A DNA stretch of 64,000 bases from an uncultured beta proteobacterium (GCA_963749795.1 CAVVOR010000001.1:87957-151956), one strand, 5' to 3'. Counted from the stretch's first letter, positions 1,289 through 17,027 are shown. The notes: generated from the letters alone by a model not told the origin. Program-made: numbers and translations.

Positions 1289-1301
1289 CGGTGGCCGGCA
1301 A

Positions 1302-2334: not shown

Positions 2335-3033
2335 ATGAGTCGCCAGTTGCCGCGTGGACCCGTTGCCATGGTCCCTGTCACCAACGCCTACGATCTGGAC
2401 TGCCGGCGTTGCGTTCGCCTGGCTGCCTTTCTTGATGATGTGCATGCGGCACACCCGTCGTACTTCTGCCGCCCGGTACCGCCGTTTGGAGACGCGAACG
2501 CGCGGCTGGTCATCGTCGGCCTCGCGCCCGGCATGCACGGCGCCAATGCGACAGGACGCCCGTTCACCGGGGACTATGCGGGGATCATTCTCTATGAAAC
2601 GCTGCACAAGTACGGTTTCGCCACCAAGGCGCAATCGACTGGTGTCGAGGATGGGCTCGAGCTCGTCGACGCGCGCATCACCAACGCGGTCAAATGTTTG
2701 CCGCCAGGAAACAAGCCTCTGCCCGCCGAAATCAGGACATGCAACGCCTTTCTCGCGCGCGAGCTCGCCGGAGTGCCGCCGGGCGCCGCAATCCTGGCGC
2801 TGGGACGCATTGCACACGACGCCACACTGCTTGCATTTGGGTTACCTTCGCGAGGCCACGCGTTTTCGCATGCGGGCGAGCACGCGTTGCCGCGTGGCGT
2901 CCGCCTGTTCGACAGCTATCATTGCAGCCGCTACAACACCAATACGCGACGACTGACTACGCCGATGTTCGAGCAGGTGTTCGCGTCGATTGTGCGGCAC
3001 CTCTCCGCACCAGCGACCGCAAAACTCGGGTGA
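2335..3033 (+). CDS. uracil-DNA glycosylase superfamily protein (family 4/5-like)
   Basis: VIVGLAPGMHGANATGRPFTGD motif and a C-terminal SYHCSRYNTNT motif. Stop lies 4 nt before the uvrC start. Confidence 0.75.
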   Translation: MSRQLPRGPVAMVPVTNAYDLDCRRCVRLAAFLDDVHAAHPSYFCRPVPPFGDANARLVIVGLAPGMHGANATGRPFTGDYAGIILYETLHKYGFATKAQSTGVEDGLELVDARITNAVKCLPPGNKPLPAEIRTCNAFLARELAGVPPGAAILALGRIAHDATLLAFGLPSRGHAFSHAGEHALPRGVRLFDSYHCSRYNTNTRRLTTPMFEQVFASIVRHLSAPATAKLG

Positions 3034-3037
3034 ACGA

Positions 3038-5020
3038 ATGACCATCCCCGAGAACGACGATCCCGCCGGCGTCACAGCAAAGCGAAGTCGCGATCGCGCT
3101 GCGGAGTCGCGGCCGCCGGCTGCGCGATTCGACGTCCGCGAATTGCTCGCTTCGCTGCCCAATCGGCCCGGGGTGTATCGGATGATCAGCGCATCCGGCG
3201 ATACCTTGTATGTCGGCAAGGCGCGCGACCTTAAGAAAAGGGTCTCAAGCTACTTCCAGAAAACCGATCACCATCCGCGTACCGCCTCGATGGTGGCTCA
3301 AGTCGCCGGCGTCGACACGACCGTCACGCGCTCAGAAGGCGAAGCGCTTCTGCTCGAGAATAACCTGATCAAGGCGCATCAGCCGCGTTACAACGTACTG
3401 TTTCGCGACGACAAGAGCTATCCGTACGTCTGTTTGACGGGCGAAACGTTTCCGCAGCTGCGATTCCATCGCGGCAAGCTGGAAAAACCGCATCGCTACT
3501 TCGGACCTTTCCCCAGCGCCGGTGCCGTACGCGAAGGGATGACGGTTCTGCAGAAAGTATTTCTTCTGCGCACCTGCGAGGCAAGCGTGTTCGCCAACCG
3601 CTCGCGACCCTGCATGCTGTATCAGATCCAGCGTTGTACCGCGCCTTGCGTCGGCCTGATTTCGGAGGCCGACTACCAGGAGGACGTTCGCAACGCGACG
3701 CTATTTCTGCAGGGCAAGACCGGCGAAGTATTGGCTGGATTGCAGCGGCAGATGGAAGAGGCTGCGGCGGCACTGGCATTCGAACGCGCGGCGGGACTGC
3801 GTGACAAGATCACGCGCTTGCAGCAGCTACAGTCCAGACAGTTCGTCGAGAGCGCGACCGCGGGCGACATCGACGTCGTTGCCGGCGTGGCGGAGCGGGG
3901 ACTGACAGCGGTGAACGTCGTCATGATCCGCGGTGGCAGGCACGTCGGCGACCGGACGTATTTTCCGCAACATGCGGAAGGCGTTGCCTTGGACGAGATC
4001 GTTCCTGCGTTCCTGTTGCAGCACTATCTGGATCGCGTGGTGCCGCCGGTGATTGTCGCAACGGCGCTGGCGACCGACGCCGCAGCAGAAGTCCCGAGCG
4101 AAGGTGCTGGTGAAGGTGCTGGTGAAGGTGCGAGCGGGGCCGACTTGCCCGAGACCATCGAATCGAGCGAGAGTGAAGTTCTCGCGGAAGTATTGTCGTC
4201 ACAATCGGGGCACAAGGTGCAACTGATCACCAGGCCGGGTGGCGAGCGGCGCGTGTGGGTCACGATGGCAATCCAGAATGCGGAATTCGCGATCCGACAG
4301 AAGCTCGCGCAAAAAGCGACGCAGGACGAGCGGCTTGCGGCATTGCAGGAAGCGCTTGGATTGCCCGCATCGGTGCAGCGCATCGAGTGCTTCGATGTCA
4401 GCCACACGATGGGCGAGTCTGCCGTCGCCAGTTGCGTCGTGTTCGATCGCCTCGCCATGCAGACGAGCGAATACCGGCGTTTCAACGTAAAGCCGGCCAC
4501 GGGAGGTGACGATTACGCAGCCATGCGCGAGGCGCTGACACGGCGAGTCGCCCGCATAGTCGCGGGAGAGTATCCTGCACCGGACTTGCTGGTCATCGAT
4601 GGTGGCAGAGGTCAGGTTGGCGTCGCCGCCGAAGTGTTGGCGGAGCAGGGTTTGCATGGGACGCAGCTAATCGGCATCGCCAAAGGGCCCGAGCGAAAAC
4701 CGGGAGAGGAAGAGATCATCTTTCCCGCGAGAGAAAAGGCCTTACAATTGTCGCCGGACCATCCGGGATTGCATTTGCTGCAGCAGATTCGGGACGAGGC
4801 GCACCGGTTTGCCATCCAAGGACATCGGGCGCGCCGCGCCAAGACCCGGAACACGTCGACGCTGGAGGCGATTGCCGGCATCGGTGCTCGTAAGCGACAG
4901 GCCTTGCTGGCTCACTTCGGTGGACTCAAGGGCGTGCAGGCGGCAAGCGTGGATGATCTGGCGCGCGTGCCGGGGATCAGCCGAGCGCTGGCAGATCGCA
5001 TTTTTACTGAATTGCATTAG
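3038..5020 (+). CDS. uvrC: excinuclease ABC subunit C
   Basis: GIY-YIG N-terminus (GVYRMISASGDTLYVGKARDLKKRVSSYF), UvrBC domain, C-terminal HhH (GIGARKRQALLAHFGGL). ATG at 3038 is preferred over the ORF-track start at 2990, which overlaps the UDG gene. Confidence 0.95.
   Translation: MTIPENDDPAGVTAKRSRDRAAESRPPAARFDVRELLASLPNRPGVYRMISASGDTLYVGKARDLKKRVSSYFQKTDHHPRTASMVAQVAGVDTTVTRSEGEALLLENNLIKAHQPRYNVLFRDDKSYPYVCLTGETFPQLRFHRGKLEKPHRYFGPFPSAGAVREGMTVLQKVFLLRTCEASVFANRSRPCMLYQIQRCTAPCVGLISEADYQEDVRNATLFLQGKTGEVLAGLQRQMEEAAAALAFERAAGLRDKITRLQQLQSRQFVESATAGDIDVVAGVAERGLTAVNVVMIRGGRHVGDRTYFPQHAEGVALDEIVPAFLLQHYLDRVVPPVIVATALATDAAAEVPSEGAGEGAGEGASGADLPETIESSESEVLAEVLSSQSGHKVQLITRPGGERRVWVTMAIQNAEFAIRQKLAQKATQDERLAALQEALGLPASVQRIECFDVSHTMGESAVASCVVFDRLAMQTSEYRRFNVKPATGGDDYAAMREALTRRVARIVAGEYPAPDLLVIDGGRGQVGVAAEVLAEQGLHGTQLIGIAKGPERKPGEEEIIFPAREKALQLSPDHPGLHLLQQIRDEAHRFAIQGHRARRAKTRNTSTLEAIAGIGARKRQALLAHFGGLKGVQAASVDDLARVPGISRALADRIFTELH
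4100..4132 (+). repeat. 12-nt in-frame tandem repeat (GAAGGTGCTGGT x2.7) encoding EGAG EGAG EGA inside uvrC
   Basis: Read directly: gaaggtgctggt gaaggtgctggt gaaggtgcg. Confidence 0.9.
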
Positions 5021-5094
5021 CACGATCTCCGACCGGAGCGCATGACCCAATCCACCGTGTCGTCGAATCAGAAAGTTCCTGCGTCGTCCAACTC

Positions 5095-5682
5095 ATGCTG
5101 TTCAATGTTCCCACCGCGCTCACCTGGCTCCGGATCATTCTGATTCCGGTGTTCGTCGGCGTTTACTATTTACCTAACGCGTGGATGTCGTTGCCGCACA
5201 AGAACTGGCTGGCGATGAGCGTGTTCGCTCTGGCCGCGATTACCGATTGGGCCGATGGATATCTCGCACGCAAATTGGGACAGACCTCGGCGTTCGGCGC
5301 GTTCCTCGATCCGGTCGCCGACAAGCTGATGGTCGCGGCGGCGCTGATCCTGCTGGTCTGGCTCGATCGCGCGGAGGCCTGGCTCGCCATCATCATCATC
5401 GGTCGTGAGATCGCGATATCGGCGCTGCGCGAGTGGATGGCGCAGCTTGGTCAATCGAAGAGTGTCGCGGTGGCATTCATCGGCAAGGTCAAGACTGGCG
5501 CGCAAATCACCGCCATCATTGCCTTGCTGCTGTTCCAGCCGGTGATTCCGGGTATCAACACCGTGTGGCTCGGCACGACGGCATTGTGGGTCGCGGCGAT
5601 TCTGACGCTGTGGTCGATGTTCCACTATCTACGCATCGCCGCGCCCCATTTTCGCGCCAAGCCCAAGCGCGATCCTTTCTGA
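5095..5682 (+). CDS. pgsA: CDP-diacylglycerol--glycerol-3-phosphate 3-phosphatidyltransferase
   Basis: CDP-alcohol phosphatidyltransferase motif DWADGYLARKLGQTSAFGAFLDPVADKL. Conserved uvrC-pgsA-tRNA neighbourhood. Confidence 0.9.
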   Translation: MLFNVPTALTWLRIILIPVFVGVYYLPNAWMSLPHKNWLAMSVFALAAITDWADGYLARKLGQTSAFGAFLDPVADKLMVAAALILLVWLDRAEAWLAIIIIGREIAISALREWMAQLGQSKSVAVAFIGKVKTGAQITAIIALLLFQPVIPGINTVWLGTTALWVAAILTLWSMFHYLRIAAPHFRAKPKRDPF

Positions 5683-5744: not shown

Positions 5745-5774
5745 TTGACCCGGGTATGGTCGAGCGACTATAAT
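5745..5774 (+). promoter_or_regulatory. sigma70-type promoter for tRNA-Asn
   Basis: TTGACC (5745-5750), 18-nt spacer, TATAAT (5769-5774), 10 nt before the mature tRNA 5' end. Confidence 0.6.
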
Positions 5775-5784
5775 GTTCGGCTGT

Positions 5785-5860
5785 TCCCTGATAGCTCAGT
5801 TGGTAGAGCGACGGACTGTTAATCCGCAGGTCCCTGGTTCGAGCCCAGGTCGGGGAGCCA
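5785..5860 (+). tRNA. tRNA-Asn (anticodon GTT)
   Basis: 76-nt cloverleaf folded by hand. Acceptor TCCCTGA/TCGGGGA, D arm GCTC..GAGC, anticodon loop CTGTTAA, T arm CCTGG TTCGAGC CCAGG, encoded CCA. Close to my recollection of E. coli tRNA-Asn. Confidence 0.93.
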
Positions 5861-5868
5861 AGCTACAT

Positions 5869-5900
5869 GCGGCCCGCAGCGATGCGGGCCGTTTCTTTTT
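5869..5900 (+). terminator. rho-independent terminator after tRNA-Asn
   Basis: GCGGCCCGCA gcga TGCGGGCCGT stem followed by TTCTTTTT. Confidence 0.7.
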
Positions 5901-6051
5901 GCTCCGCAATTCTGGCTTTGCTCCGCAAAAATGTGGATAACCTGATCAGCGCGATCGATTGCTGAGGCAATACAGTCCTGGGCCAGCGGCACACATTTGG
6001 TGTGGCAGATGCGTAGATTCGCGCCGCGCCTCCGCACCTGAATATCATACT

Positions 6052-6118
6052 AAACAGTTATTTTTGAACTGTTTCTTTCAAAATACCGTAGGACCCCGTG
6101 GACGACCACGTAGCTCCG
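6052..6118 (+). other. orphan TetR-family 5' end (about 17 codons) preceded by an operator-like palindrome
   Basis: AAACAGTT-N7-AACTGTTT palindrome at 6052-6074. Then ..FQNTVGPRGRPRSS.. parallels the start of the intact TetR gene at 7337 (..IQNTARPRGRPRSF..), with mostly synonymous codon differences. Similarity stops after about 6118. Confidence 0.45.
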
Positions 6119-6213
6119 GCAATCTCCCGCTGATTCACCGCGATCAGGTCAGCCGCGATCGGGCCTTTCTTCAGGACACCGCTCTCAAGGTGCTGCGGAA
6201 GACGACGAATTTT

Positions 6214-7221
6214 CTATGTCAATCCGACGGGCCGTTTTGGCATCAGCGGACCCGCATGAGACGCGGGTCTGACAGGCGATAAATTGACGCCGGAGACATT
6301 GACGACGGCCTGCCACGCGGCTTCCTGGTTGGCGCCATCGAGGAGATGTGGTTGGAGTTGCACTTCCATCGGGCCTGAGAACTTCCCTTGAGCCGAGGCG
6401 AAGAATTGCCCTGATACGTCGGTTCCGAACTCCGACGCCTGGAGGTAGCGACGGGCCGCGGTCTCCGGCGCCTGATTCATGCCGGGAATGCGGTTCACGA
6501 TTGGAATCATCAGATACTTCAACAACGGGCCAGCATTTCGCGCCACATTGGTGGCGTTCGACGCACCGGGCGATACGGCGTACACGGCCATGCCGGAGGG
6601 CAGCCGGCGGGCCAGCGCCGCGGCCCACCAAGCGACAATGAGCTTCGCGTCGGCATACGCATTGTTGGGCGCGTACTTCACGTGCGGCCCGTTGCGAATC
6701 AGGGCTTCAACAGCGGCGGTTTGGTCACCCCGGAAGTATTTAGCCGCGAAGGCGAACGCGTCGGTGTACTTGAACATGGGCACGCCCCCGCGGGCAGGCT
6801 CCGCGCTGGTGATAACGATCCGCGCGTTGGGGCTCAGCAGGTTGGCGCGAAGCAACCCGACAGTCAGTTGATGGTGGCCGATCAGCGGGGCTTGAGAAGC
6901 CTCGATGCCCGCCGCAGTGAGCACACGATTCTTGCCTGGAACCATCCCTGCATTGAGCAGCAGGAAATCGATCGGCTGACCCCGCTTGACCAGTTCGGCG
7001 AGTGCGGACTGAACGCTGGACGACGAGTCCAGATCCAACTCCAACGGCGTGAAGATTTTTTTCTTGATCTCAGCCGCGAGTTGAGCAGCCGTATGCTGGA
7101 CCGCGCCAAGCCTGCGTCCGGTGACGATGACCTGTTTATAGCCCTTGGCGGCGAGCAAGCCGGCTGCCGCATAACCGAGCCCGGATGTGGCGCCGGTGAT
7201 GAGGGCGATTGAATGTTCCAT
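6214..7221 (-). CDS. SDR-family oxidoreductase
   Basis: N-terminal ALITGATSGLGYAAAGLLA Rossmann motif. Divergent from the TetR gene. Confidence 0.85.
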   Translation of the reverse strand: MEHSIALITGATSGLGYAAAGLLAAKGYKQVIVTGRRLGAVQHTAAQLAAEIKKKIFTPLELDLDSSSSVQSALAELVKRGQPIDFLLLNAGMVPGKNRVLTAAGIEASQAPLIGHHQLTVGLLRANLLSPNARIVITSAEPARGGVPMFKYTDAFAFAAKYFRGDQTAAVEALIRNGPHVKYAPNNAYADAKLIVAWWAAALARRLPSGMAVYAVSPGASNATNVARNAGPLLKYLMIPIVNRIPGMNQAPETAARRYLQASEFGTDVSGQFFASAQGKFSGPMEVQLQPHLLDGANQEAAWQAVVNVSGVNLSPVRPASHAGPLMPKRPVGLT

Positions 7222-7336
7222 GGGGGCTCCGTGGTGAAAGGGGGTCGAGTCGTGAGGCCCCCGCGAGGCGAGGGCCGGCTTGCTATTTTCGAACTATTCA
7301 GTTATATATTGGTGCGGTGACCATTGTCAATGAATT
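7222..7336. promoter_or_regulatory. divergent promoter/operator region between the SDR and TetR genes
   Basis: A/T-rich 115-bp spacer with short inverted repeats (AACTattcAGTT at 7292-7303; TTGAAccaaatgaTTCAA across the TetR start). No experimental support. Confidence 0.35.
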
Positions 7337-7960
7337 TTGAACCAAATGATTCAAAATACCGCTAGGCCGCGGGGTCGACCGCGCAGCTTCGACGAGACGG
7401 GGGCGCTGGACAAGGCGACTCAGGTGTTCTGGTCGAAAGGCTACGACGGAGTGACGATCGACGATCTCGTCGCCGGGATGGGCGTAGGACGGCCGAGCCT
7501 GTATGCCGTCTTCGGGGACAAGCGGGCGATATTCTTGCGCGTCCTTATGGCGTACGCGGAACGGAAGGGCGCATTAGCCGCGAAGGCACTCCTCGCACCT
7601 CAGACTATTCGCGACGCGATCGCGGACTTTCTGAGGTACGCCGTCGAAAGTGCGACCCAGAAAGGGTCCGCCCGGGGCTGCCTCATGATGTGCGTCGCGC
7701 CGCTTGTGAATGACGCTGAGGTTCAGCGGTTCCTGCAGCGCGCCGTCGCGGGCGGCGTGGCGCTGGTGGAGCGCCGTTTCCGGGACGGGATCAGCGCGGG
7801 AGAAATCCCGCCTGACTTTCCGGTGGCCGTGCGCGCGGTCCAAGTCACAGATTTTGCTCGTGCCTTGACCATGCGTGCGCAGATAGGCACGCCGCGCAAG
7901 ACGCTCCTCAAAGAGGCAGAGGAAGCAACCGACTTGGTGCTTCAGCCGCGGCGCGTCTGA
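7337..7960 (+). CDS. TetR/AcrR-family transcriptional regulator
   Basis: HTH region LDKATQVFWSKGYDGVTIDDLVAGMGVGRPSLYAVFGDK. Confidence 0.9.
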   Translation: MNQMIQNTARPRGRPRSFDETGALDKATQVFWSKGYDGVTIDDLVAGMGVGRPSLYAVFGDKRAIFLRVLMAYAERKGALAAKALLAPQTIRDAIADFLRYAVESATQKGSARGCLMMCVAPLVNDAEVQRFLQRAVAGGVALVERRFRDGISAGEIPPDFPVAVRAVQVTDFARALTMRAQIGTPRKTLLKEAEEATDLVLQPRRV

Positions 7961-8219
7961 CGGGTTATCGGAAACAATTCACTGAGAAATGACCATGACA
8001 ACTGACATGAGCGGGCGACCTGGAGCATTTCGCAAGTCCGGCCATGGTTTCTATGCGTACGGCTGACTTGGTTTTGGACGCAAGGCCGTGTTGTCGACGC
8101 GTCGCTCTGATTCGACGCGTCAGTCCACTCCCAATCGCGTACGTGCATTTGCCGGCGTGAGCGCCGGTCGGCCTGCCATCTTAATGGAAAGTGGCGCACG
8201 CCACGACTTTCCCGATTTG

Positions 8220-9185
8220 CTATTGCGCCTTGATCCCCGCGGCCTTGATGACCTTCGCCGAATCCTCGATTTCCGCCTGCACGAACTTGTGGAACTCGGC
8301 TGGGGTCATCGGCATCGGTTCGGCACCCAGCGTCGCGAGCCGCTCCTTGACGTCGGGCGCCTGCGCCGCCCGGTCGATGTCCTTGTTGATCTTGTCGACG
8401 ATGTCCGGCGGCGTTCCGGCCGGCGCGAACACGCCGACCCACAGGTTGTAGTCGAATCCCGGCAACGCCGCCTCGGCGATCGTCGGTACGTTGGGCAATG
8501 CGCTCGACCGCTTGGCCGTACTCACCCCCAGCGCGATCAGCTTGCCTTCGCGCACGTTGGGTAACGCCGCCGAGATCGGTGAAAAGAAAAACGTGACGCG
8601 GCCGGCCAGCGTGTCGTTAAGCGCCTCGGGCGTGCCTTTGTAGGGGATGTGCACGACGTCGATGCCGGCCGCGAGCTTGAATTTCTCCGCGTTGATATGC
8701 GTGCCGCTGCCGGTGCCGGCGGATCCGAAGTTAAGTTGCCCGGGTTTTTGCTTGGCCAGCGCGATCAGCTCCGCGACGGACTTGACCCCGGTGGCTGGCG
8801 CGACGATGAGCACGTTGGGTTGCCCGGCGAGAGGTGCAATCTCGGCGAAATCCTTGGACGTGTCGTAGGAAAGCGTCGGGTAGATCGACGCGTTGTAAGC
8901 CTGCGCAGCGGAGTTCACCAGCAGCGTGTAGCCGTCGGGCGGGGATTTCGCCACCACCGCGGCGCCGATCGTGCCCCCGGCCCCCGGGCGGTTCTCGACG
9001 ATCACCGACTGGCCCCACATCTCCGACAATTTCTGACCAAAGGTGCGCGCCAGGATGTCGGTGGCGCTACCCGCGGTGAACGGAACGATGAGACGCACGG
9101 TCTTGTTCGGATAACCCTGTCCCGTCGCCAACGGCACGCAACAAAGCGCAATCGCGATGCCGGCAATCCAGCGCCCGAGTTTCAT
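8220..9185 (-). CDS. Bug/TctC-family tripartite tricarboxylate transporter substrate-binding protein
   Basis: Signal peptide, then YPNKTVRLIVPFTAGSATD.., the characteristic Bug-family N-terminus. About 320 aa. Confidence 0.9.
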   Translation of the reverse strand: MKLGRWIAGIAIALCCVPLATGQGYPNKTVRLIVPFTAGSATDILARTFGQKLSEMWGQSVIVENRPGAGGTIGAAVVAKSPPDGYTLLVNSAAQAYNASIYPTLSYDTSKDFAEIAPLAGQPNVLIVAPATGVKSVAELIALAKQKPGQLNFGSAGTGSGTHINAEKFKLAAGIDVVHIPYKGTPEALNDTLAGRVTFFFSPISAALPNVREGKLIALGVSTAKRSSALPNVPTIAEAALPGFDYNLWVGVFAPAGTPPDIVDKINKDIDRAAQAPDVKERLATLGAEPMPMTPAEFHKFVQAEIEDSAKVIKAAGIKAQ

Positions 9186-9206
9186 GTCGATCTCCTTACG
9201 CTACGC

Positions 9207-10124
9207 TCACGTGAGCCCATCGCCGACAGGCACGTTCTCAGGCTCGAGCTGCAGGCCTGACGCCTCCGCCTGCAGCACGAGCAACTTGGCGAAATCCTCT
9301 TCCGTCACCCCATGGCCGATCAGGCTCTGCACGGTGTCGCGGGTGATCGACGCCAGTGGCATCGGCACGCCGAACCTGCGCCCGGCATCGAGTCCGAGGT
9401 CGAGGTCCTTGCGCAGCAGATACGGGGTGAACGTCACCTTGAAATCAAGATTGACGAACGCGGGTGTCTTGTAGCGCGAGAATGTCGATCCCATCACGCT
9501 CTGGTTCATGAATTCGAGGAACGCGTGCCGCGGCACGCCCGCCTTCTGCGCCAGCACCGTGATCTCGGCCAGCGACTGGGTGACGACGCCGAGGAACACG
9601 TTGTGGCAGATCTTCACGATGCGCGCGAGCTCGCCCTCGCCAACGTAACTTGCGGACGGCGCAATCATCCTGAGGCAGGGAAGCGCCGCATCGAACGCAG
9701 ACTTCGGTCCCGAGCACACGAACGACAAACGGCCGGCCTTGATCACCTTGGCGTTGCCCGACACTGGCGCGGCCAGCAACTCGATGGCGCGCGCCTTGAG
9801 CAACGCGCGCAACTCGGCCGAGCCTTCGAGCGAAATCGACGAGCACTCCACGATCATCCGCGGCTTGCCCGCACCGGACAGCAGGCCGGAGGGACCCAGC
9901 ACGACTTCCTTCACGTCGTCCCAAGTCGACACCATGCAAAAGACGATGTCGCAGGCAGCAAGGTCCGTCAGCTTGTCCGCGACCTTTGCGCCGTAAGCCG
10001 TCAACGGCTCGGCCTTGCTGCGCGTGCGATTCCAGACGGTAACGTCCGCGCCGCTCTTGGCAAGCCTGGCCGCCATTTCGTAACCCATGCGGCCGATTCC
10101 GATCCAGCCGATTCGCTCCTTCAC
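9207..10124 (-). CDS. NAD(P)-dependent oxidoreductase, 3-hydroxyisobutyrate dehydrogenase family
   Basis: IGWIGIGRMGYEMAARL dinucleotide fold and the family-typical length. Confidence 0.85.
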   Translation of the reverse strand: MKERIGWIGIGRMGYEMAARLAKSGADVTVWNRTRSKAEPLTAYGAKVADKLTDLAACDIVFCMVSTWDDVKEVVLGPSGLLSGAGKPRMIVECSSISLEGSAELRALLKARAIELLAAPVSGNAKVIKAGRLSFVCSGPKSAFDAALPCLRMIAPSASYVGEGELARIVKICHNVFLGVVTQSLAEITVLAQKAGVPRHAFLEFMNQSVMGSTFSRYKTPAFVNLDFKVTFTPYLLRKDLDLGLDAGRRFGVPMPLASITRDTVQSLIGHGVTEEDFAKLLVLQAEASGLQLEPENVPVGDGLT

Positions 10125-10160
10125 GCATTCACTCCTTCACTCATTCACGCTTTCACTGCC

Positions 10161-11468
10161 CTAATACGGATTCGCGATCGGCAATTCTTCCGCCGGATAC
10201 AGCGAGATGATCTTCGGCCCGATCGGCGTGAGGATGACCTCCTCCTCGATGCGTGCCGCTGAAATACCATCGCTCGCGGGGCAGTAGGTCTCGACTGCGA
10301 ACACCATGCCAACCTTGAGCTCGATCGGCTCCTTCAACGAGTTCAGTCGAGAGATCAGCGGCCGCTCGTGCAATCCGAGCCCGAGGCCATGGCAGAAGTT
10401 GAGCCCGAACGCATCCATCTCGCTGGCGAAGCCGATGTCCTTGGCCTTGGGCAGCGAGCGTGCGATCTTGTCCGAGACTCACGCCCGGTTTCAGCAGGTC
10501 GATGGTGCGATCCATCCACTCGCGCGCCTTGCGGTACGCGGTTCGCTGTGACGATGTCGCGCGGCCGACGTTGAACGTGCGGTAGTAGCACGTGCGGTAG
10601 CCCATGAACGACTGGATGATGTCGAAGAACGCCTGATCGCCCGGGCGAATCAGCCGGTCGGTGAAGTTGTGCGGATGCGGGCTGCAGCGCTCGCCGGAAA
10701 TCGAGTTGATCGCCTCGACGCAATCGGAGCCCATGCCGTACAGACGTCCCGTGGCGAGCGCGACGATCTCGCTCTCCTTGACGCCGGGCTTCAGCGCTTC
10801 CGCGATGTCCTGATAAACGCCGTCGACCATCGCCGCGGCCATGTTGAGCAGCGTGAGTTCGTCGATGTTCTTCACTTCGCGCGCCTGCAGCAGCGTTTGC
10901 TGACCATCGCGCACTTCGATGCCCAGCTTTCTGCAATTCGAACAGCATCGGCGGCTCGACGACATCGAGGCCCAGCGGCATCTTGCCGACCCCTTCCGCG
11001 TCGAGGATCGATTTGATTTCGCGCGCCGCGTCGCGAAACAGCGCGATGTCGCCACCGACAGCGCCGCGCAATCCCAGCAATCCCGCGCGGCAATGGTCGT
11101 GATGCAGCCACGGTGCATGCAGGCGATGGTGCCTGCGCCGCCGAGCCGAAATCCCAGATGTACGGGTCGCCATTGCCGGTCAGCAGCGAATAGCGCGTCA
11201 GCTTGTCGCGCGCCCATTCGCCGATGACGGTGCTGGTCATGTAACGGATGTTGTGCTGGTCGAAGCACAGCAGCGCGCCGAGACCCGAATTCGCCAGCGC
11301 GGCACGCGTTCGCGCGAGGCGATAGTCGTGCAGGCGGCGAAAATTGACGCGCTCCTCGAAGTCGACCTGCGTGTGCCCGGGCGCCTGCAGTGGACGATCC
11401 CACTTGTAGTGCGGATCGATGTCGTCGGGCCGGATGATCTTCGGCTCGCTCGTTTTTTTCTTCGCCAT
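10161..11468 (-). pseudogene. M24-family metallopeptidase (creatinase / Xaa-Pro peptidase / DddP-like) with at least 3 frameshifts
   Basis: Coding signal hops between three frames. N-terminal part (MAKKKTSEPK..IWDFGSAA) to about 11135. Middle (..HHRLHAPWL..MLFELQK) to about 10940. Catalytic part (GIEVRDGQQTLLQAREVKN..DLLKPGV) to about 10485. C-terminus (..DAFGLNFCHGLGLGLHERP..). Confidence 0.8.
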
Positions 11469-11490
11469 GGTGTGTAGTCTGCTTGTTGAC

Positions 11491-12498
11491 TCAGCGTTTG
11501 CCGTACGCTTTTTCGTAGTACGAAAGATCGACATATTTCATCGGGTCGGCGAGTGTCTTCTGCGGCAGGCCGTACTTGCTGCGCAATTCGAGCACCGTGC
11601 GGATGCCCGAAATATCGAGCGCGACATCGCGCGTCACGCCGCCTTTGTCGGCAAGCAGCAGGTCATAGGATTGCTTCGCCAGCGCTGGCGTCATGTCGCG
11701 GATGTTGGCTACCAGGAGCGTTTCGACGATTTCGCGATTGGCACGGTCGTAGATCCAGTCGACGCCGGCGCGGTAACCGCGCATGAACCCGATCAGCGCA
11801 GCCTCATTGGCCTTGGCCCAAGAGCGTCGCGCCGCGCCAACCGTACCTTCATATGCGCCGAGCGATTCGGCAACCGCGAGTTGATTGAAGCCGCGATTCT
11901 TGGCCAGCAGCTCGAAAGGAGTCCGCAGCAGCGTGGCGTCGTGCTTGCCGTCGAGCAGTTCGCGATAGCGATTGGAGGTCCCGCCGGCACGCACGTACTT
12001 GACATCGGCTTCCGCCAGTCCGTTGCGCGCGAGCAGTTCGCGCACGACAAATGCATAACCGGTTGTCATCGCGTCGACCGACACGGTCTTGCCTTTGAGA
12101 TCGGCGAAATTCTTCACCGTCGGCGCACTGACCACCGAGGCAAAGCCGCTGTCATTGCCGATGAATGCGAACAGGTCGGGATTGTCAGCTATCTTGGCCT
12201 CGCCTTGCCCTTCCTGATAAGCAACGACGTTGTCGATTCCTGCAAGGCCGATGTCGAACATTCCGTCGAGCAAGCGGGTGATGAGATACACCGAACTCGG
12301 CGTGTACGAGAGCTGGACTGTAACGCCTTGCGCTTCGAAGAAGCCCTGTCGCTGCGCCGCCCAGACAGGCAGGTTCCAGCCGCCGTCGAAGGCGATGACC
12401 CGCAGCGGCGTCGGTATCGCCGGCGGCGGCGCCTGCGCGTCGACCCCGGACGCCGAAATCCATGCTGCCAGCGCAAACGCCATGACGCCAAAACGCAT
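11491..12498 (-). CDS. ABC-transporter substrate-binding protein, NMT1/THI5 (SsuA-like) family
   Basis: Signal peptide MRFGVMAFALAAWISASGVDAQA, then LRVIAFDGGWNLPVWAAQRQGFFEAQGV.. typical of the family. Confidence 0.8.
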   Translation of the reverse strand: MRFGVMAFALAAWISASGVDAQAPPPAIPTPLRVIAFDGGWNLPVWAAQRQGFFEAQGVTVQLSYTPSSVYLITRLLDGMFDIGLAGIDNVVAYQEGQGEAKIADNPDLFAFIGNDSGFASVVSAPTVKNFADLKGKTVSVDAMTTGYAFVVRELLARNGLAEADVKYVRAGGTSNRYRELLDGKHDATLLRTPFELLAKNRGFNQLAVAESLGAYEGTVGAARRSWAKANEAALIGFMRGYRAGVDWIYDRANREIVETLLVANIRDMTPALAKQSYDLLLADKGGVTRDVALDISGIRTVLELRSKYGLPQKTLADPMKYVDLSYYEKAYGKR

Positions 12499-12593
12499 GA
12501 TTCGCCTCCTCCGACGCTCCGCTCGGCCGCTATCCGGGGGCGGACTGGCAGAAGGATTGCATCATATCCGCATCCGAGGCTCGCGCACGCCCA

Positions 12594-12636
12594 TTAATCC
12601 GCAGGTCCCTGGTCCGAGCCCCGGGTCGGGGAGCCA
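12594..12636 (+). repeat. degenerate copy of the tRNA-Asn 3' half (att-like scar)
   Basis: TTAATCCGCAGGTCCCTGGTcCGAGCCCcgGGTCGGGGAGCCA versus tRNA positions 5819-5860. One substitution, plus one substitution with an inserted base. Identity starts inside the anticodon loop. Confidence 0.8.
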
Positions 12637-12972
12637 ATTCATTCACTACGTTAGGTCAGTTCTGAAGGACGGACTTGTTGCGGAACGTCCGCAATCCAAA
12701 TCTGCTATCGATTCGACCGCGCGCGCTCATCATGGGCGCCGACTTTGTCGTTCCGTAGTCGCTTTCGGCCAGAAGCTGTCGCGACAAGCGTTCTCCGGTA
12801 GAGTGCGAAAAGCAGTACCTCGAGCGGCTCCATAGTGTCGGGAGAACCCGGGGCGATATCAAAGAAACTAGGGATCGGTTAAATATCCTGTATCTATTCC
12901 GCCACGATCACCTTATCCTTGTCCAGTAAGGCTGCTGCGCGGCCAGCCCAAATAAAATAGGAGGAAAACAAC

Positions 12973-14299
12973 GTGTCCAATCGTGCAATTTCTCGTCGTA
13001 AGCTGCTGAAGGCATCGGCCGCGGCCGGTGTGCTCGGATTGGTGGGCCTGCCCGCTTTTGCGGAGCCGCAATGGAAGAAATACGCCGGTACGAAACTCGA
13101 GGTGCTCCTCATCAAGGGTCCGCGCGGCGATAATCTGGAGAAAAACATGAAAGAGTTCACCGACCTGATTGGCATACAGGTCGAGTCCGAGCAAGTGCCC
13201 GAGCAGCAGCAACGCCAGAAGGCTGTGATCGAACTCTCGTCCGGCAAGCCGAGCTTCGACGTCGTCCACCTGAGCTATCACGTTCAGAAGCGCCAGTTCG
13301 AAAGGGCCGGATGGCTCGCCGACCTCTCGGGATTCATGAAGGACCCGAACCTCACGGCGCCAGATCTCGTCGAAAGCGATTTTTCGGCCGCAGGTCTTTC
13401 CTATGCCAAGAACGACAAGGGGCAGTTGCTTTCGCTGCCGTGGTCGGTCGACTACTTCATCCTCTACTACAACAAGGAAATCTTCCAGAAGAAGGGTGTT
13501 GCAATACCAAAGAACTTTGACGAGATGATAGCGACCGCCGACAAGTTGACAGACCCCGCGTCAGGCACCTTCGGCTTTGTCGGGCGCGGCCTCCGCAACG
13601 CCAACATGACGCTTTGGTCCAACTTCTACCTCAATTACGGTGGCGAATTCCTGGACGCCAAGGGCAATATCTTGACGGACGGTCCTGAGGCAGTTGAAGC
13701 GACCAAGATGTATCAGCGCCTGATGAAGGATGCTCCTCCTGGCGTGGCCGGATTCAACTGGATGGAATCCATGGCGGCCTTTACCCAAGGGGCGAGCGGC
13801 GATGTGGATCGACGGCGTCGGCTGGGCCCCGCCGGTGGAGGATCCGGCCGCCTCGCGCGTCGTCGGCAAGGTCGGCTACACGATGGTTCCTGCCGGACCG
13901 AAGGGCCGTTTCTCGGCGACCTACGGCGACGGCATCGGCATCGCGCAGACGAGCAAGAACAAGGAAGCCGCCTTCCTGCTTTGCCAATGGGCCGTATCGA
14001 AGCAGCAGGGCGCACGCCTTCTGCAATCTGGCGGCGGGGTTCCATTTCGTAACTCCGTGCTCAACGACCCGGAAGTTCGCAAAGGCGTCAAGTTACCGCA
14101 GGAGTGGCTGCAATCTGTCATCGACGCATCGAAGATCAGCAAACTCGGTCTGCCGGTCATCATCCCGGTGGCCGAGTTCCGCGACATTGTCGGTGCCGGT
14201 GTCACAGCGACGCTGTGGGGCGCTGATCCCGCAGTAGAACTCAAAAAGGCGCACGAGCAGTTCCGGCCAATTCTCGAGCGATCCGAGAAGGCGTCGTAA
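12973..14299 (+). pseudogene. sugar-type ABC transporter substrate-binding protein (family 1), one extra base
   Basis: AGGAGG RBS, GTG start, Tat-like signal SRRKLLKASAAAGVLG. Frame breaks at the GGGG run 13789-13792 (expected ..FTQGRAAMWIDG..). Length is 1 mod 3. Confidence 0.8.
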
Positions 14300-14366
14300 C
14301 AATCGCCTTGTCACTGCGCCTTTCCTGCTCCGGAATATTTCCGGAGCAGGATTACCGCTTCCAGAG

Positions 14367-15293
14367 TTGACCATGTGCGAGCAAAGCATCGAAGCCGACG
14401 CAGGTTTCAAGCAGAAGTATTGGCTACGCTCCTATTGGCCATTCGTGATCCCGGCGCTGGTTGTGGTCCTCGGCGTGATCATCTTCCCTTGGCTCTTTAC
14501 CATCTGGATGAGCCTGAACGAATGGAAGGTCGGCTCGCCGACGGTCTTCGTTGGCCTCGCCAATTACCTGCGTCTACCGAACGATCCGCGCTTCATCGAA
14601 GCAACTTGGCACACGATGGCGTATACCTTCCTGTCGGTGCTGCTGCCACTTGTATTGGGCACGTTCGCCGCGGTCGTTTTCGACAAGAAATTTCCGCTGC
14701 GCGGTTTCCTGCGCGGATTGTTCATCATGCAAATGAAGGCAACACCGGTAGCCATCGCGTTGGTGTGGACCATGATGTTCAATCCGCAACTTGGCGTGCT
14801 GAACTATCTACTCTCGCTGGTGGGCCTGCCGGCGCAGCTCTGGGTATTCCACCCCGGCACCGTAATCCCGTCGCTGGTCATGGTCGAGACGTGGCAATGG
14901 ACGCCTCTCGTGATGCTGATCGTGCTTGGCGGGCTCGCCGCGATACCGGCCGAGCCTTATGAGAACGCGCGGATTGATGGGGCGAGCTTCTGGCAGATGT
15001 TTCGCTACATCACGCTGCCGCTGATCACGCCATTCCTGTTCATCGCTGCGATGATCCGCATGATCGACGCGGTGAAGAGCTTCGACATTATTTTTGCCAT
15101 TACGCAGGGCGGCCCGGGAACGGCCTCCGAAACTATCAATCTCTATCTGTACAGCGTCGCTTTCGTCTACTACGACATAGGGTACGGCTCGGCGATCGCG
15201 CTTGTGTTCTTCGTGCTTATCGTCGTGCTTGCCGCCATATTGCTCTATCTGCGGCAGCGCATGCACTGGAGCGAGGCCGGAGCTAACGCATGA
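14367..15293 (+). CDS. ABC transporter permease (MalF/UgpA-like)
   Basis: Six hydrophobic spans and an EAA-type loop (YENARIDGASFWQMFRYITLPL). Confidence 0.85.
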   Translation: MTMCEQSIEADAGFKQKYWLRSYWPFVIPALVVVLGVIIFPWLFTIWMSLNEWKVGSPTVFVGLANYLRLPNDPRFIEATWHTMAYTFLSVLLPLVLGTFAAVVFDKKFPLRGFLRGLFIMQMKATPVAIALVWTMMFNPQLGVLNYLLSLVGLPAQLWVFHPGTVIPSLVMVETWQWTPLVMLIVLGGLAAIPAEPYENARIDGASFWQMFRYITLPLITPFLFIAAMIRMIDAVKSFDIIFAITQGGPGTASETINLYLYSVAFVYYDIGYGSAIALVFFVLIVVLAAILLYLRQRMHWSEAGANA

Positions 15294-16104
15294 GTCCGCG
15301 TCGAATCCTCGGCAAGATCGCGCTCGCGTTCTCGGTGGTTGTCATCGTGTCACCGGCGATCCTGTTTTTCGTCTGGATGGTCTCGCTCTCGATAAAGCCC
15401 GAGGTCGACAATGCCAGCTATCCTCCGATCCTAATCCCCGACCGGCTGGCATGGAAGAACTACGCCGCTGTCCTTACGTCCAACCACTTCGTCACCTATT
15501 TCGTCAACAGCCTTATGGTCACCGGTACTGCAACTTTATTTGCGCTCGCGGTCGGCGTGCCGGCTGGCTACGGTATCGCGCGCATGCGCGCGCACAAGTC
15601 GGCGATCGAATCATGAATACCAGAATCAGCCGGTCTTTCCTATCTTGTTCCGTGCTTACTTCGATCCCGTGGATTCACTGCTTGGCCCGTTCTCACCGCA
15701 GATCAACTTCATCGGTCGTGACGGTGCCGATAGGTCTGGATCATCATCGGCTATATCAAACGACGCCCAACAAAGTCGAAGAAGCGGCTACTATCGATGG
15801 CGCAACGCGCTGGCAGGTGTTCCGGTACGTCGCGCTGCCGATCGCTCGGCCCGGTATTGCCGTGGCGATGATCCTGGCAGTGATCTTCTCCTGGAACAAT
15901 TTCGTCTTCGGCATCGTGCTCGCAAGTCGCGAGACGCGGACGCTGCCGGTCGCGGTCTACAACATGATCTCATTCGACCAACTCAGCTGGGGGCCGCTCG
16001 CGGCGGCCGCGCTTCTCGTAACATTTCCGGTCCTATTGCTCACGGTCTTCGCCCAACGTCAGATCGTCGCCGGACTCACGGCCGGAGCCGTCAAGGGCGG
16101 CTGA
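15290..16104 (+). pseudogene. ABC transporter permease (MalG/UgpE-like) with several frameshifts
   Basis: N-terminus in ORF 15290..15616. EAA loop and C-terminus (EEAATIDGATRWQVFRYVALPI..) in ORF 15202..16104. The intervening TM segments are spread over other frames between about 15605 and 15770. Confidence 0.75.
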
Positions 16105-16257
16105 CCCGTCAGCCGAGGGCGCGAATTGGTATCCAACTCCCGTTCCGCAAAATTGAGGGCTATCGGTATCTTCGGGGCACCAACGCGCGGAAACCCGCGC
16201 AAATTGCGGAACGGAATTTCGCCTAAGCTAACGGAAAGTGCGCGAATCCGCGGAGGC

Positions 16258-16299
16258 CTGTTAATCCGCAGGTCCTAGGTTCGAGCCTTGGTCGCTAGC
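16258..16299 (+). repeat. divergent copy of a tRNA-Asn 3' half (att-like scar)
   Basis: CTGTTAATCCGCAGGTCC is identical to the tRNA. It is followed by a different but still pairable T arm (CTAGG TTCGAGC CTTGG) and a different acceptor strand (TCGCTAG), with no CCA. Confidence 0.75.
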
Positions 16300-16740
16300 G
16301 CCTCTGGCGCGCAAATCGCGCAGCCCGAAATCCTTCACTTCAGCCTCGACACAGTGTCGTCGAAACATCGAGCCGATCCGGTCGACCGTGTACTCTTTGC
16401 TGTTTTCGCGACGCACAAAAGTTAGATCGTAGCGTCGGTGAGATCAGGAACGGCTCAATGACCGCAGCTAATTTTCCGGCGATGTCGATTTCCACTTGAG
16501 CTTTCGTCGTTCCTCTGCGGAATCGTAGCGTCGCCGACCGTCTTGGTATCTGACAAGGTTCCGCGGGCCTGGACGCAAAACGTCGGCAGGCAGGCCAAGC
16601 GTGCGCACGCAGAACGTCATGGCAAGGCGCACAGACGCGTCAGCACGTTCGTGCACCGCAAGATACTCGCTGTCCGTGATTAGGCGCTCCCTGACCGATT
16701 TGCGAGGGCGCCGAATTTCTTTAGCTTTTCGAGCCGGCAC
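16261..16740 (-). pseudogene. lambda-type tyrosine integrase remnant
   Basis: ..ITDSEYLAVHERADASVRLAMTFCVRTLGLPADVL.. and ..YTVDRIGSMFRRHCVEAEVKDFGLRDLRA.. lie in one frame. It is interrupted by in-frame TAG (16468-16470) and TGA (16444-16446). The frame ends at the TAA formed by the anticodon-loop TTA of the tRNA fragment, before any catalytic Tyr region. Confidence 0.65.
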
Positions 16741-17027
16741 TGCGGACGGCCGTGGTCAAAGTCCGCTTCCATGGTCTTGAGTGACCGCTTTCAACTCGCA
16801 CGGGCTTCGCTTGGGGTCGACTGCCGGCATTGAAGCAATTCAACCGAGCGGCTGCTGCTCAGCGTACTGCAGCCATCGACGCGTGAAGGGCCGGTGTGGA
16901 TCGTAGAGCCGCCGCTCATCCCAAGGAGACGGTCAACCGTACTCGACCCTAACCGGCCGGATGCATAGCCGCGAAGCAGTCGTTCGCTTTGCGGTTACGA
17001 TTCCTAATTCGTCCTCGTCTAGCGCCC

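What the first reader, a model, noticed from the sequence alone, without database searches (positions are those of the whole stretch)
5785..16740. Three copies of the tRNA-Asn 3' half: stacked integration scars ending at a dead lambda-type integrase
The intact tRNA-Asn(GTT) at 5785-5860 is followed by two further copies of its 3' half. Both start inside or just before the anticodon loop. Copy 2 (12594-12636) is nearly identical but decayed. Copy 3 (16258-16299) shares CTGTTAATCCGCAGGTCC and then carries a different, still base-pairable T arm and a different acceptor strand, as expected for an element-borne tRNA segment from another host.

Directly right of copy 3, reading towards it, is an integrase remnant with two in-frame stop codons. 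Its frame terminates in the anticodon-loop TTA, before the catalytic Tyr region. This geometry (att core in the anticodon loop, int 3' end pointing at att) is the lambdoid arrangement. It implies successive insertions at the same tRNA, each displacing the earlier 3' half rightwards. The two displaced blocks (5861-12593 and 12637-16257) have no integrase of their own and carry the most heavily decayed genes.
Basis: partly seen in the sequence, partly recalled or inferred. Interest (0 to 1): 0.72.

Follow-up and report, generated by a model that had tools for sequence, protein, structure and literature searches.

The report
Decayed island stack at tRNA-Asn
Next to a tRNA-Asn gene of an uncultured soil betaproteobacterium lie two leftover copies of the tRNA's 3' half and a broken integrase gene, which are the ordinary scars of mobile DNA inserting repeatedly at one tRNA.

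Summary
tRNA-Asn(GTT) lies at 5785-5860. Two direct 3'-half copies follow at 12594-12636 and 16255-16294, both far above chance.

Directly right of copy 3, reading towards it, is a fragment of a tyrosine integrase (16294-16806, minus strand). It is 58% identical, after correcting two frameshifts, to residues 160-309 of intact integrases of about 350 aa. In three related genomes these sit 66-104 bp downstream of tRNA-Asn in the same orientation and match PF00589.

Three details of the finding are wrong:
- The "different acceptor strand" of copy 3 is integrase coding sequence.
- Its T arm is the second common tRNA-Asn allele of this family plus two C>T changes.
- The "in-frame stops" lie in a frameshifted stretch.

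New evidence:
- A conserved att architecture (TCCGCAA sites at fixed positions) links the intact tRNA, as attL, with copy 3, as attR. Four other species share it.
- Seven relatives carry similar islets without an integrase.
- The SDR-TetR cargo is 96% identical to that of another species' tRNA-Asn islet, against about 75% for the flanking genes.
- A strain of the same species breaks exactly at the left edge of copy 2.

Verdict: an ordinary tRNA integration hotspot with accreted, decayed islets resembling cis-mobilizable elements (CIMEs). The insertion history is more tangled than simple stacking.

The parts
2990..5682 (+). Conserved left flank: uvrC (2990-5020) and pgsA (5095-5682)
   Evidence: Syntenic in the 80 Casimicrobiaceae/Betaproteobacteria loci found with pgsA. 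uvrC is about 80% and pgsA up to 91% aa identical.
5785..5860 (+). Intact tRNA-Asn(GTT); attL core (O1)
   Evidence: ARAGORN. Rfam RF00005, 65 bits. 100% identical to the tRNA in L006, L012, L016, L044, L052 and L060.
5861..5957 (+). tRNA trailer / P' arm: terminator hairpin GCGGCCCGCAGCGATGCGGGCC plus T-run, then two direct TCCGCAA sites at 5903 and 5922 (+43 and +62 from the tRNA end), then TGTGGAT
   Evidence: Same motif spacing in L001, L006, L017, L025 and L048; L015 has +48/+67. 93.9% identical to L006.
5958..6170 (+). Scar: truncated 5' end of a second tetR-like gene, with a palindromic operator-like AAACAGTT...AACTGTTT
   Evidence: A 64-nt repeat, 70% identical to the start of the intact tetR at 7328-7391 (D3). 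Homology to L015 starts only at 6171.
6171..7974 (.). Cargo module 1: short-chain dehydrogenase (6214-7221, minus) and TetR regulator (7337-7960, plus)
   Evidence: Pfam. 96.3% nt identical to L015 12103-13907, inside that species' tRNA-Asn islet. Flanking core genes are only 72-77% identical.
8219..12593 (-). Cargo module 2: TctC-type binding protein (8220-9185), HIBADH-like dehydrogenase (9207-10124), frameshifted M24 peptidase/creatinase-like gene (about 10153-11534), NMT1-type binding protein (11491-12498) and its 95-bp upstream region
   Evidence: Pfam. The M24 gene is split over three frames. The same four-gene cluster occurs at 72-85% nt identity in about 80 soil metagenome contigs, none carrying a tRNA-Asn fragment.
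12594..12636 (+). Copy 2 (O2): tRNA-Asn positions 34-76, allele 1 T stem, 2 substitutions and 1 indel
   Evidence: Its first base is the exact breakpoint with same-species contig L081.
12637..12700 (+). Trailer of copy 2, with the palindrome TTGCGGA-ACG-TCCGCAA (12678-12694)
   Evidence: About 60 nt resemble the trailer of the full tRNA-Asn in L004 (seen by eye; inference).
12973..16104 (+). Cargo of block 2: sugar ABC transporter binding protein (frameshifted, 12973-14299), permease 1 (14367-15293), and decayed permease 2 (about 15202-16104) that contains a foreign piece of about 180 nt at 15604-15784
   Evidence: Pfam. ORF structure. 15604-15784 is 74% identical to L081 17910-18069. GC 0.58, against about 0.61 elsewhere.
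16120..16254 (+). P arm of an attR: TCCGCAA at 16144 (plus) and 16204 (minus), within an 11-nt inverted repeat CCGTTCCGCAA
   Evidence: Homologous and in register with the left flanks of the 3'-half copies in L015, L016, L017 and L023 (alignment A1, 81% mean column identity; I22, 63).
16255..16294 (+). Copy 3 (O3): tRNA-Asn positions 28-68, allele 2 T stem plus two C>T changes; the last 8 nt are deleted
16294..16806 (-). Tyrosine integrase remnant: equivalent to residues about 131/160-309 of enzymes of about 350 aa. Two frameshifts. The N-terminal 130-160 aa are missing. The C-terminal 48 aa, which carry the catalytic His and Tyr, are missing.
   Evidence: tblastn with L008, L049 and L012 integrases gives E 4e-33, 2e-30 and 2e-16. 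The intact relatives hit PF00589. Distant matches to temperate-phage integrases.
16808..20763 (.). DNA right of the integrase, probably cargo of the oldest element: a 140-nt segment shared with L046, a Kelch-repeat protein (17028-19034, minus), a TPR fragment and an AraC-type fragment. Together with 12594-16807 it forms the 8.2-kb stretch absent from L081.
   Evidence: The right end is defined only by where L081 rejoins at 20764 (3' end of the AMP-ligase gene). No att copy is found there.

Best explanation
The tRNA-Asn gene downstream of uvrC-pgsA is an integration hotspot for elements that use tyrosine integrases. These recombine within the anticodon loop and carry their own copy of the tRNA 3' half.

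An element encoding an integrase of the type seen in L008 inserted first. Its integrase lay just downstream of the tRNA and read towards it.

Later, elements of a second family entered at the same core and pushed the older tRNA half and integrase about 10 kb away. This family is recognisable by TCCGCAA sites at fixed distances on both arms and carries metabolic cargo but no integrase.

Accretion and internal deletions then produced the present composite:
- attL (tRNA plus P' arm)
- the SDR-TetR module
- a four-gene transport/catabolic module
- an internal 3'-half copy with its own trailer
- an ABC-transporter module
- attR (P arm plus copy 3)
- the integrase stump

A deletion of about 220 bp fused copy 3 to the interior of the integrase gene and removed the catalytic Tyr. 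The N-terminal third of the integrase is also gone. Nothing in the window can now excise by itself.

**Shown:** the repeats, the integrase homology and its truncation, the shared arm architecture, horizontal sharing of cargo, and variation between strains at the edge of copy 2.

**Inferred:** the order of events, that TCCGCAA is an integrase arm-binding site, and that the islets moved using an integrase supplied in trans.
For: - Three direct copies, far above chance.
- The integrase remnant is homologous to intact PF00589 integrases that sit 66-104 bp from tRNA-Asn in the same orientation in L008, L049 and L012.
- Extra 3'-half copies follow tRNA-Asn in L001, L015, L016 (two), L017, L023, L056 and L057. 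The left edges of identity all fall at tRNA positions 24-42.
- TCCGCAA occurs 22 times in the window (14 expected). Six of these lie within about 115 nt of the three copies.
- The motifs sit at the same positions (+43/+62, and about -110/-50) in 9 relatives. The P arm aligns across five species.
- The SDR-TetR module is 96.3% identical to L015's islet, against 72-77% for the flanking core genes.
- No conserved gene lies downstream of the tRNA across 80 relatives.
- Several contigs break at the tRNA.
- Same-species contig L081 diverges at exactly the first base of copy 2.
- Tandem accretion, CIMEs, and partial tRNAs with fragmented integrases inside islands are documented (PMC5704250; bioRxiv 10.1101/2020.12.28.424599).
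Against: - Copy 2 has no P arm on its left. It abuts the conserved promoter region of the four-gene module.
- L081 carries block 1 with no tRNA copy at its right end. Under strict stacking this needs an extra deletion that ends exactly at the core.
- No attR for the oldest element was found within 64 kb.
- Base composition of the blocks is barely distinguishable from the rest of the window.
- In L025 the tRNA trailer with TCCGCAA sites is followed directly by htpG, so it could be native sequence rather than an element arm.
- The frameshifts could partly be consensus errors of a metagenome assembly. L081 shows a different frameshift pattern in the same genes.
Confidence: 0.75

Rival explanations
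1. Insertion of a pre-assembled tandem at a secondary site. The L081 arrangement (block 1 continuing into the AMP-ligase/FAD-monooxygenase region) would be ancestral. A circle made of block 2 plus the integrase-bearing element, excised as one unit, then integrated at a pseudo-att site beside the NMT1 promoter (cis-mobilisation). That would create copy 2 at the left junction. The right junction and about 0.7 kb were later lost.
For: - L081 is 97% identical up to 12593 and has no tRNA fragment at the junction.
- Copy 2 begins exactly in the anticodon loop and lacks a P arm on its left.
- Transfer of CIME-ICE tandems as units is documented (PMC5704250).
Against: - No right junction (P arm plus the 5' part of the core) is found near 20700-20770 or anywhere else in the window.
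- It needs a pseudo-site that happens to lie only 6.7 kb from the real tRNA-Asn site.
- It needs a further 0.7-kb deletion or replacement.
- The 0.7 kb of L081 shares a 74%-identical piece with block 2. That fits rearrangement of related islands better than a clean insertion.
Confidence: 0.15
2. Assembly or consensus artefact. The window comes from a metagenome-assembled genome in which strain-variable island DNA was joined at short shared tRNA-derived repeats. The 'decay' would then be indel error.
For: - All close relatives are MAGs, and several contigs break at this tRNA.
- L081 and the window differ by 56 indels in 12.6 kb. Most are single bases in the island genes, and the genes affected differ between the two.
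Against: - The three copies differ from one another and are only 40-43 nt long, too short and too diverged to mislead an assembler.
- The same multi-copy layout is seen independently in seven other assemblies.
- Loss of both ends of the integrase cannot be explained by indel error.
- Indels are concentrated in island genes, while uvrC, pgsA and other core genes are clean.
Confidence: 0.05
3. The tRNA-half copies are conserved functional elements, for example tRNA-derived regulatory RNAs or terminators of the neighbouring operons, and not recombination scars.
For: The T arm of copy 3 can still pair. Hairpins follow the tRNA and copy 2.
Against: - Copies 2 and 3 are absent from the same-species contig L081.
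- Both carry disruptive changes: an indel in the T arm of copy 2 and loss of the acceptor strand in copy 3.
- Rfam and ARAGORN do not call them.
- In relatives, the copies flank unrelated cargo.
Confidence: 0.02

Closest known systems
Tandem accretion of integrative elements and cis-mobilizable elements (CIMEs), as described for ICESt1-related elements of Streptococcus thermophilus and for IMEs at tRNA genes (review PMC5704250)
   Same: - Repeated integration at the 3' part of one target gene.
- Decayed elements that keep att sites but have lost integrase and transfer genes.
- Composite structures with internal att copies.
   Different: - Host is an uncultured soil betaproteobacterium (Casimicrobiaceae).
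- The neighbouring integrase is itself dead, so no element able to mobilise the array in cis is present.
- One internal junction (copy 2) lacks a P arm.
- No conjugation or mobilisation genes are in the window. The only such gene seen is a NikA-like gene in a relative's islet.
Tycheposon-built genomic islands of Prochlorococcus (bioRxiv 10.1101/2020.12.28.424599)
   Same: - Islands next to tRNA genes.
- Incoming elements push earlier ones further into the island.
- Partial tRNAs and fragmented integrases are scattered through the island.
- Cargo consists of nutrient-uptake and metabolic genes.
   Different: The integrase family is unrelated as far as tested. No tycheposon replication module is present. 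The target tRNA and the host phylum differ.
Lambdoid prophage attL-int arrangement
   Same: - A tyrosine integrase gene lies immediately inside the attachment site and reads towards it.
- Short repeated motifs lie on both arms at fixed distances from the core, as arm-type sites do.
- The intact relatives have distant similarity to temperate-phage integrases.
   Different: - No phage genes are present in the window.
- The target is a tRNA anticodon loop, which is not lambda's attB.
- No N-terminal arm-binding Pfam domain was detected in the relatives.
- The TCCGCAA sites belong to a different element family from the remnant integrase.
Asparagine tDNAs as genomic-island hotspots in Klebsiella pneumoniae (PMC4891358; title and abstract only)
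   Same: tRNA-Asn genes serve as recurrent integration sites for different genomic islands.
   Different: Different host. The islands there carry virulence and microcin determinants. I did not read the paper's att or integrase details, so no closer comparison is made.

Membership tests
Tyrosine recombinase / phage integrase (Pfam PF00589) | Significant match of the protein itself to the PF00589 catalytic-domain profile | tested here: not met
   The remnant gives no PF00589 hit up to E = 10, whether raw or frame-repaired. This is expected, because most of the profile score of the intact relatives lies in the missing C-terminal part.
Tyrosine recombinase / phage integrase (Pfam PF00589) | Homology to proteins that are bona fide members | tested here: met
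   The remnant is 58%, 51% and 38% identical to residues about 145-309 of the L008, L049 and L012 proteins. These score 47-64 bits on PF00589, above the 27.1-bit cut-off.
Tyrosine recombinase / phage integrase (Pfam PF00589) | Complete catalytic set, including the C-terminal His/Trp and the nucleophilic Tyr | tested here: not met
   The alignment ends at ...LRDLRARGAS. The last 48 residues of the relatives (…LLGHESVRTTEIYL…) have no counterpart, and the tRNA fragment follows directly. This is a dead remnant, not a working enzyme.
tRNA-targeted genomic island / tandem island array | Intact tRNA at one end and a direct repeat of its 3' part at the other end(s) | tested here: met
tRNA-targeted genomic island / tandem island array | Integrase gene next to an att site | tested here: met
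   Present only as a remnant at 16294-16806. Intact in the same position in L008, L012 and L049.
tRNA-targeted genomic island / tandem island array | Variable presence among close relatives, or evidence of horizontal transfer | tested here: met
   - L081 lacks 12594-20763.
- Downstream DNA differs in nearly all 80 relatives.
- The SDR-TetR module is 96% identical to L015, against about 75% for the flanks.
tRNA-targeted genomic island / tandem island array | Atypical base composition | tested here: inconclusive
   Block 2 has GC 0.58, against 0.60-0.62 elsewhere. Tetranucleotide distances are at or just above the range of random windows of the same size.
Cis-mobilizable element (CIME) | attL and attR retained; integration and transfer genes lost | tested here: met
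   This holds for the interval 5785-16294 as a whole, with the P' arm at the tRNA and the P arm at copy 3. No integrase or transfer gene lies inside it. For block 1 alone it is not met, because there is no P arm left of copy 2.
Cis-mobilizable element (CIME) | Excision or transfer driven by an integrase of a related element | not testable with these tools
   This needs reads or PCR for attB/attP junctions, or an experiment. The only neighbouring integrase is inactive.
Lambda-type integrase system with arm-type sites | Repeated arm-type sites on the P and P' arms, bound by an N-terminal domain of the integrase | tested here: inconclusive
   Positionally conserved TCCGCAA sites are present. Binding is untested, and the cognate integrase is unidentified. 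L048 has these sites and an integrase 1.5 kb away. No arm-binding Pfam domain was detected.

The most novel reading that the evidence does not exclude
The TCCGCAA-armed islets (1.6-10 kb; cargo of one to ten genes; no integrase; seen in the window and in L015, L016, L017 and L023) could form a distinct family of minimal, att-bounded gene cassettes. An integrase encoded elsewhere would move them in trans. tRNA-Asn of Casimicrobiaceae would then act as a gene-capture platform resembling an integron, with the tRNA 3' half playing the part of the cassette recombination site.
Probability: 0.15. Interest if true: 0.6.

Novelty: new member of a known kind. Interest (0 to 1): 0.25.

Why it matters
This is a clear, well-bounded example of how the flexible genome of an abundant but uncultured soil lineage (Casimicrobiaceae) is built. 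One tRNA gene collects, shuffles and degrades small metabolic gene modules.

The conserved arm architecture and the 96%-identical cargo shared between species give usable markers (the TCCGCAA sites and the tRNA-half repeats). With them, such islets can be delimited in metagenome assemblies, where island predictors and composition fail.

It does not change current understanding of site-specific integration.

Tried and rejected
- **A fourth tRNA-half copy marking the far end of the oldest element.** The candidates at 59466-59478 (13-nt exact match just after fdhD) and 29467-29490 (T-loop-like) score 26 and 28. That is inside the 22-31 range of simulated sequence. Rejected as chance.
- **13-14-nt matches at 33196 and 42279.** Both lie inside coding sequence. 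Chance.
- **A right junction for a secondary-site insertion.** I searched for the 5' part of the core, GCGACGGACTGTTAA, with up to 3 mismatches. Only the tRNA, copy 3 and two hits consistent with chance were found.
- **Direct profile identification of the remnant.** Pfam, PHROGs and NCBIfam gave nothing.
- **Other integrases in the window.** tblastn with six diverse integrases taken from the relatives found none.
- **An SSV-like split integrase.** I considered that integration had split the gene, leaving its C-terminal part beside another att copy. No C-terminal piece exists in the window, and in relatives the gene ends 66-104 bp before the tRNA without spanning it.
- **Exact-sequence look-ups.** Permease 1, the Kelch protein, SDR and the FAD monooxygenase returned nothing. 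Only pgsA found a contig, L081.
- **The small conserved gene beside the P arm in L015 and L017.** It has no counterpart in the window and no Pfam family.
- **htpG, which follows the tRNA in L025, as a conserved right flank.** It is found in no other locus and not in the window.
- **Composition as an island marker.** Uninformative.

Full report
**Observation**

ARAGORN finds a single tRNA in the 64-kb window, tRNA-Asn(GTT) at 5785-5860. Rfam agrees, and finds nothing else in 5-21 kb.

Local alignment shows two further direct copies of its 3' part:
- Copy 2 is 12594-12636. It covers tRNA positions 34-76 with two substitutions and one indel.
- Copy 3 is 16255-16294. It covers positions 28-68 with five substitutions.

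The repeat finder reports the three as its top direct-repeat family (D1). In a Smith-Waterman scan with the 3' half, the copies score 70 and 55. The best scores in 30 Markov-1 simulated windows were 22-31. The copies are therefore real and not chance.

**The integrase**

The minus-strand frame right of copy 3 gave no hit to Pfam, PHROGs or NCBIfam.

A scan of GTDB species genomes with pgsA returned 80 loci. The titled records are Casimicrobiaceae or unclassified Betaproteobacteria MAGs. The best pgsA identity is 91%, so the window's own species is not in that set.

Three of these loci (L008, L049, L012) carry an intact ORF of 346-357 aa on the minus strand. It ends 66-104 bp downstream of tRNA-Asn. 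These proteins match PF00589 above the curated cut-off. They also have distant matches to temperate-phage integrases.

The window fragment aligns to their residues about 131/160-309 (tblastn E 4e-33 to 2e-16).

Once the two frameshifts are repaired, the alignment to L008 is continuous and 58% identical.

Two parts of the gene are missing:
- The N-terminal 130-160 residues are gone. Left of about 16807 the DNA is instead 77% identical to a non-integrase segment of L046.
- The C-terminal 48 residues, which carry the catalytic His and Tyr, are gone.

The integrase codons (…RARGAS) abut tRNA position 68 at 16294. So about 144 bp of gene, the spacer of about 66 bp and the last 8 nt of the tRNA half were removed by one deletion.

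The peptide DQGSNLGPAD at the end of the frame is merely the tRNA read backwards. It turns up over every tRNA-Asn in the relatives.

**What copy 3 is**

Among the relatives, tRNA-Asn has two T-stem alleles, CCTGG/CCAGG and CCAGG/CCTGG. The second is the commoner. Copy 3 is the second allele with two C>T transitions. The intact tRNA and copy 2 are the first allele.

This fits an element-borne or older 3' half. It does not require an exotic host.

**A hotspot shared across the family**

- Seven relatives have extra 3'-half copies downstream of the full tRNA: L001, L015, L016 (two copies), L017, L023, L056 and L057. They enclose 1.5-5.3 kb of unrelated cargo.
- Identity with the tRNA always begins between positions 24 and 42, in or next to the anticodon loop.
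- Seven contigs end at or inside the tRNA.
- Genes upstream (uvrC, pgsA and others) are syntenic. No gene downstream is conserved across the set.
- Almost every locus has its own pair of 8-10-nt direct repeats 30-80 nt after the tRNA, as expected for the arm sites of different integrases.

**A conserved att architecture**

The motif TCCGCAA occurs twice in direct orientation at +43 and +62 from the tRNA end. This holds in the window (5903, 5922) and in L001, L006, L017, L025 and L048. In L015 the positions are +48/+67.

The same motif occurs once on each strand about 110 and 50 nt to the left of copy 3 (16144, 16204). It is in register with the left flanks of the 3'-half copies of L015, L016, L017 and L023. 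The 135-nt arm aligns across all five with 81% mean column identity.

Six of the 22 TCCGCAA occurrences in the window lie within about 115 nt of the three copies. Background density predicts roughly 0.2 (my estimate).

In this architecture the intact tRNA with its trailer is an attL, and copy 3 with its left flank is an attR, of one element family.

Copy 2 has the motif only on its right, as the palindrome TTGCGGA-ACG-TCCGCAA. It has no P arm on its left.

None of the intervals bounded by these arms contains an integrase, in the window or in L015, L016, L017 and L023. Their cargo includes:
- a HicA toxin
- a NikA-like mobilisation protein
- an aldo-keto reductase
- a STAND-type regulator
- in the window, dehydrogenases, regulators and transporter genes

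**Evidence of mobility**

The SDR-TetR module (6171-7974) is 96.3% identical in DNA to the islet of L015. The flanking uvrC-pgsA region of the two genomes is only 72-77% identical.

The 5' end of the FAD-monooxygenase gene (23460-23610) is 90.7% identical to L046, whose pgsA is only 72% identical in protein.

The four-gene module (8219-12593) is a widespread soil-bacterial cluster. It occurs on about 80 metagenome contigs, none with a tRNA-Asn fragment.

**A strain of the same species**

An exact look-up of the pgsA protein found ENA contig ERZ25039552:contig_62284 (L081).

- L081 is 97.1% identical to window 1-12593.
- It diverges at exactly the first base of copy 2.
- It then has 0.7 kb of other DNA.
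- It rejoins the window at 20764, the 3' end of the AMP-ligase gene.

L081 therefore has block 1 but lacks copy 2, block 2, copy 3, the integrase stump and the Kelch/TPR/AraC stretch. It has no tRNA fragment at the junction.

This shows the left edge of copy 2 is a recombination breakpoint within the population. It also shows that the history is not a simple stack. Either L081 lost 8.2 kb by an event ending at the core, or the window gained a pre-assembled tandem at a secondary site. I could not find a right junction that would support the second option.

**Decay**

- In the window, the M24 peptidase gene is split over three frames, the sugar-binding protein gene over two, and permease 2 is disrupted. 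The other cargo genes are intact ORFs.
- Against L081, divergence is about 1% in the first 7 kb but about 5% in the four-gene module.
- L081 carries more than 40 single-base insertions in TctC, the HIBADH-like gene and the NMT1-type gene. None are in homopolymers.
- This concentration in island genes suggests relaxed selection. Consensus error in strain-variable regions of metagenome assemblies cannot be excluded.
- Base composition does not mark the blocks.

**Interpretation**

The best-supported reading is a tRNA-Asn integration hotspot. It carries an accreted and internally deleted composite of integrase-less islets, abutting the stump of an older element's integrase.

This matches published descriptions:
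- Tandem accretion and CIMEs (PMC5704250).
- Islands in which incoming elements push older ones inward, leaving partial tRNAs and fragmented integrases (bioRxiv 10.1101/2020.12.28.424599).

Because the arm motifs beside the intact relatives of the remnant integrase differ from TCCGCAA, the stump is probably not the enzyme that moved blocks 1 and 2. Their integrase is unidentified.

**Verdict**

This is a real but ordinary feature, and a new example of a known kind.

The only less ordinary possibility is that the TCCGCAA-armed, integrase-less islets form a cassette-like family mobilised in trans. I give that possibility about 15%.

Noticed in passing
window 5958-6170 and 7328-7391: A truncated 5' end of a second tetR-like gene lies just after the tRNA trailer, with a palindromic operator-like sequence AAACAGTT...AACTGTTT. 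A 64-nt stretch is 70% identical to the start of the intact tetR.
   Followed up: partly
window 15604-15784; L081 17910-18069: A piece of about 180 nt inside the decayed permease 2 gene is 74% identical to the start of a gene next to a DUF1214 fragment in the 0.7-kb L081-specific DNA. This suggests exchange between variant islands.
   Followed up: partly
window 8219-12593 vs L081 13125-17548: Divergence between the two same-species contigs is about 5% in the four-gene module, against about 1% in the core. L081 has more than 40 single-base insertions in genes that are intact in the window. This is either pseudogenisation or local assembly error.
   Followed up: partly
window 8219-12500; loci L082-L161: The cluster NMT1-type binding protein / M24 peptidase / HIBADH-like dehydrogenase / TctC-type binding protein is conserved in gene order and at 72-85% nt identity on about 80 soil metagenome contigs. 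Its substrate is unknown.
   Followed up: no
window 16808-16949 and 23460-23610; L046 19835-20624: Two short segments are 77% and 90.7% identical to L046, a distant relative (pgsA 72% aa). In L046 they lie about 500 bp apart and about 8 kb downstream of tRNA-Asn. In the window they are 6.5 kb apart and in opposite relative orientation, which suggests an inversion inside a shared island.
   Followed up: no
loci L002, L010, L014, L030, L032, L061, L068: Contigs of related MAGs end within or a few bases after tRNA-Asn. The hotspot breaks assemblies.
   Followed up: no
loci L003-L080, 30-80 nt after tRNA-Asn: Nearly every relative has its own pair of short direct repeats after the tRNA (CGGTAATATT, GGGTCTATT, TGTAGCCA, ACGTAGCCGTTA, GGGGTAAAT, TGGTATCCACT and others). 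This suggests many integrase specificities for the arms but one shared core.
   Followed up: partly
window 23629-25434 (minus): A single 601-aa ORF combines the end of a cyclic-nucleotide-binding domain, DUF924 and a 1-Cys peroxiredoxin. It may be a true fusion or a run-together of neighbouring genes.
   Followed up: no
window 27106-27822, 34948-35682, about 46000-53800: Other gene fragments occur far from the tRNA: part of an AMP-binding enzyme, and the N-terminal part of a xanthine-dehydrogenase-type molybdopterin subunit. A stretch of about 8 kb has almost no long high-GC3 ORFs. Decay or low assembly quality is therefore not confined to the two blocks.
   Followed up: no
window 53888-59457: An apparently intact NAD-dependent formate dehydrogenase operon (a Nuo51-like subunit, the molybdopterin catalytic subunit, and FdhD). 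The 13-nt match to the tRNA core at 59466-59478 just after it is consistent with chance.
   Followed up: yes
L016 11688-11984; L017 11034-11324: Islets in relatives carry a NikA-like relaxosome accessory protein and a HicA toxin. This hints that the integrase-less islets derive from mobilizable elements.
   Followed up: partly
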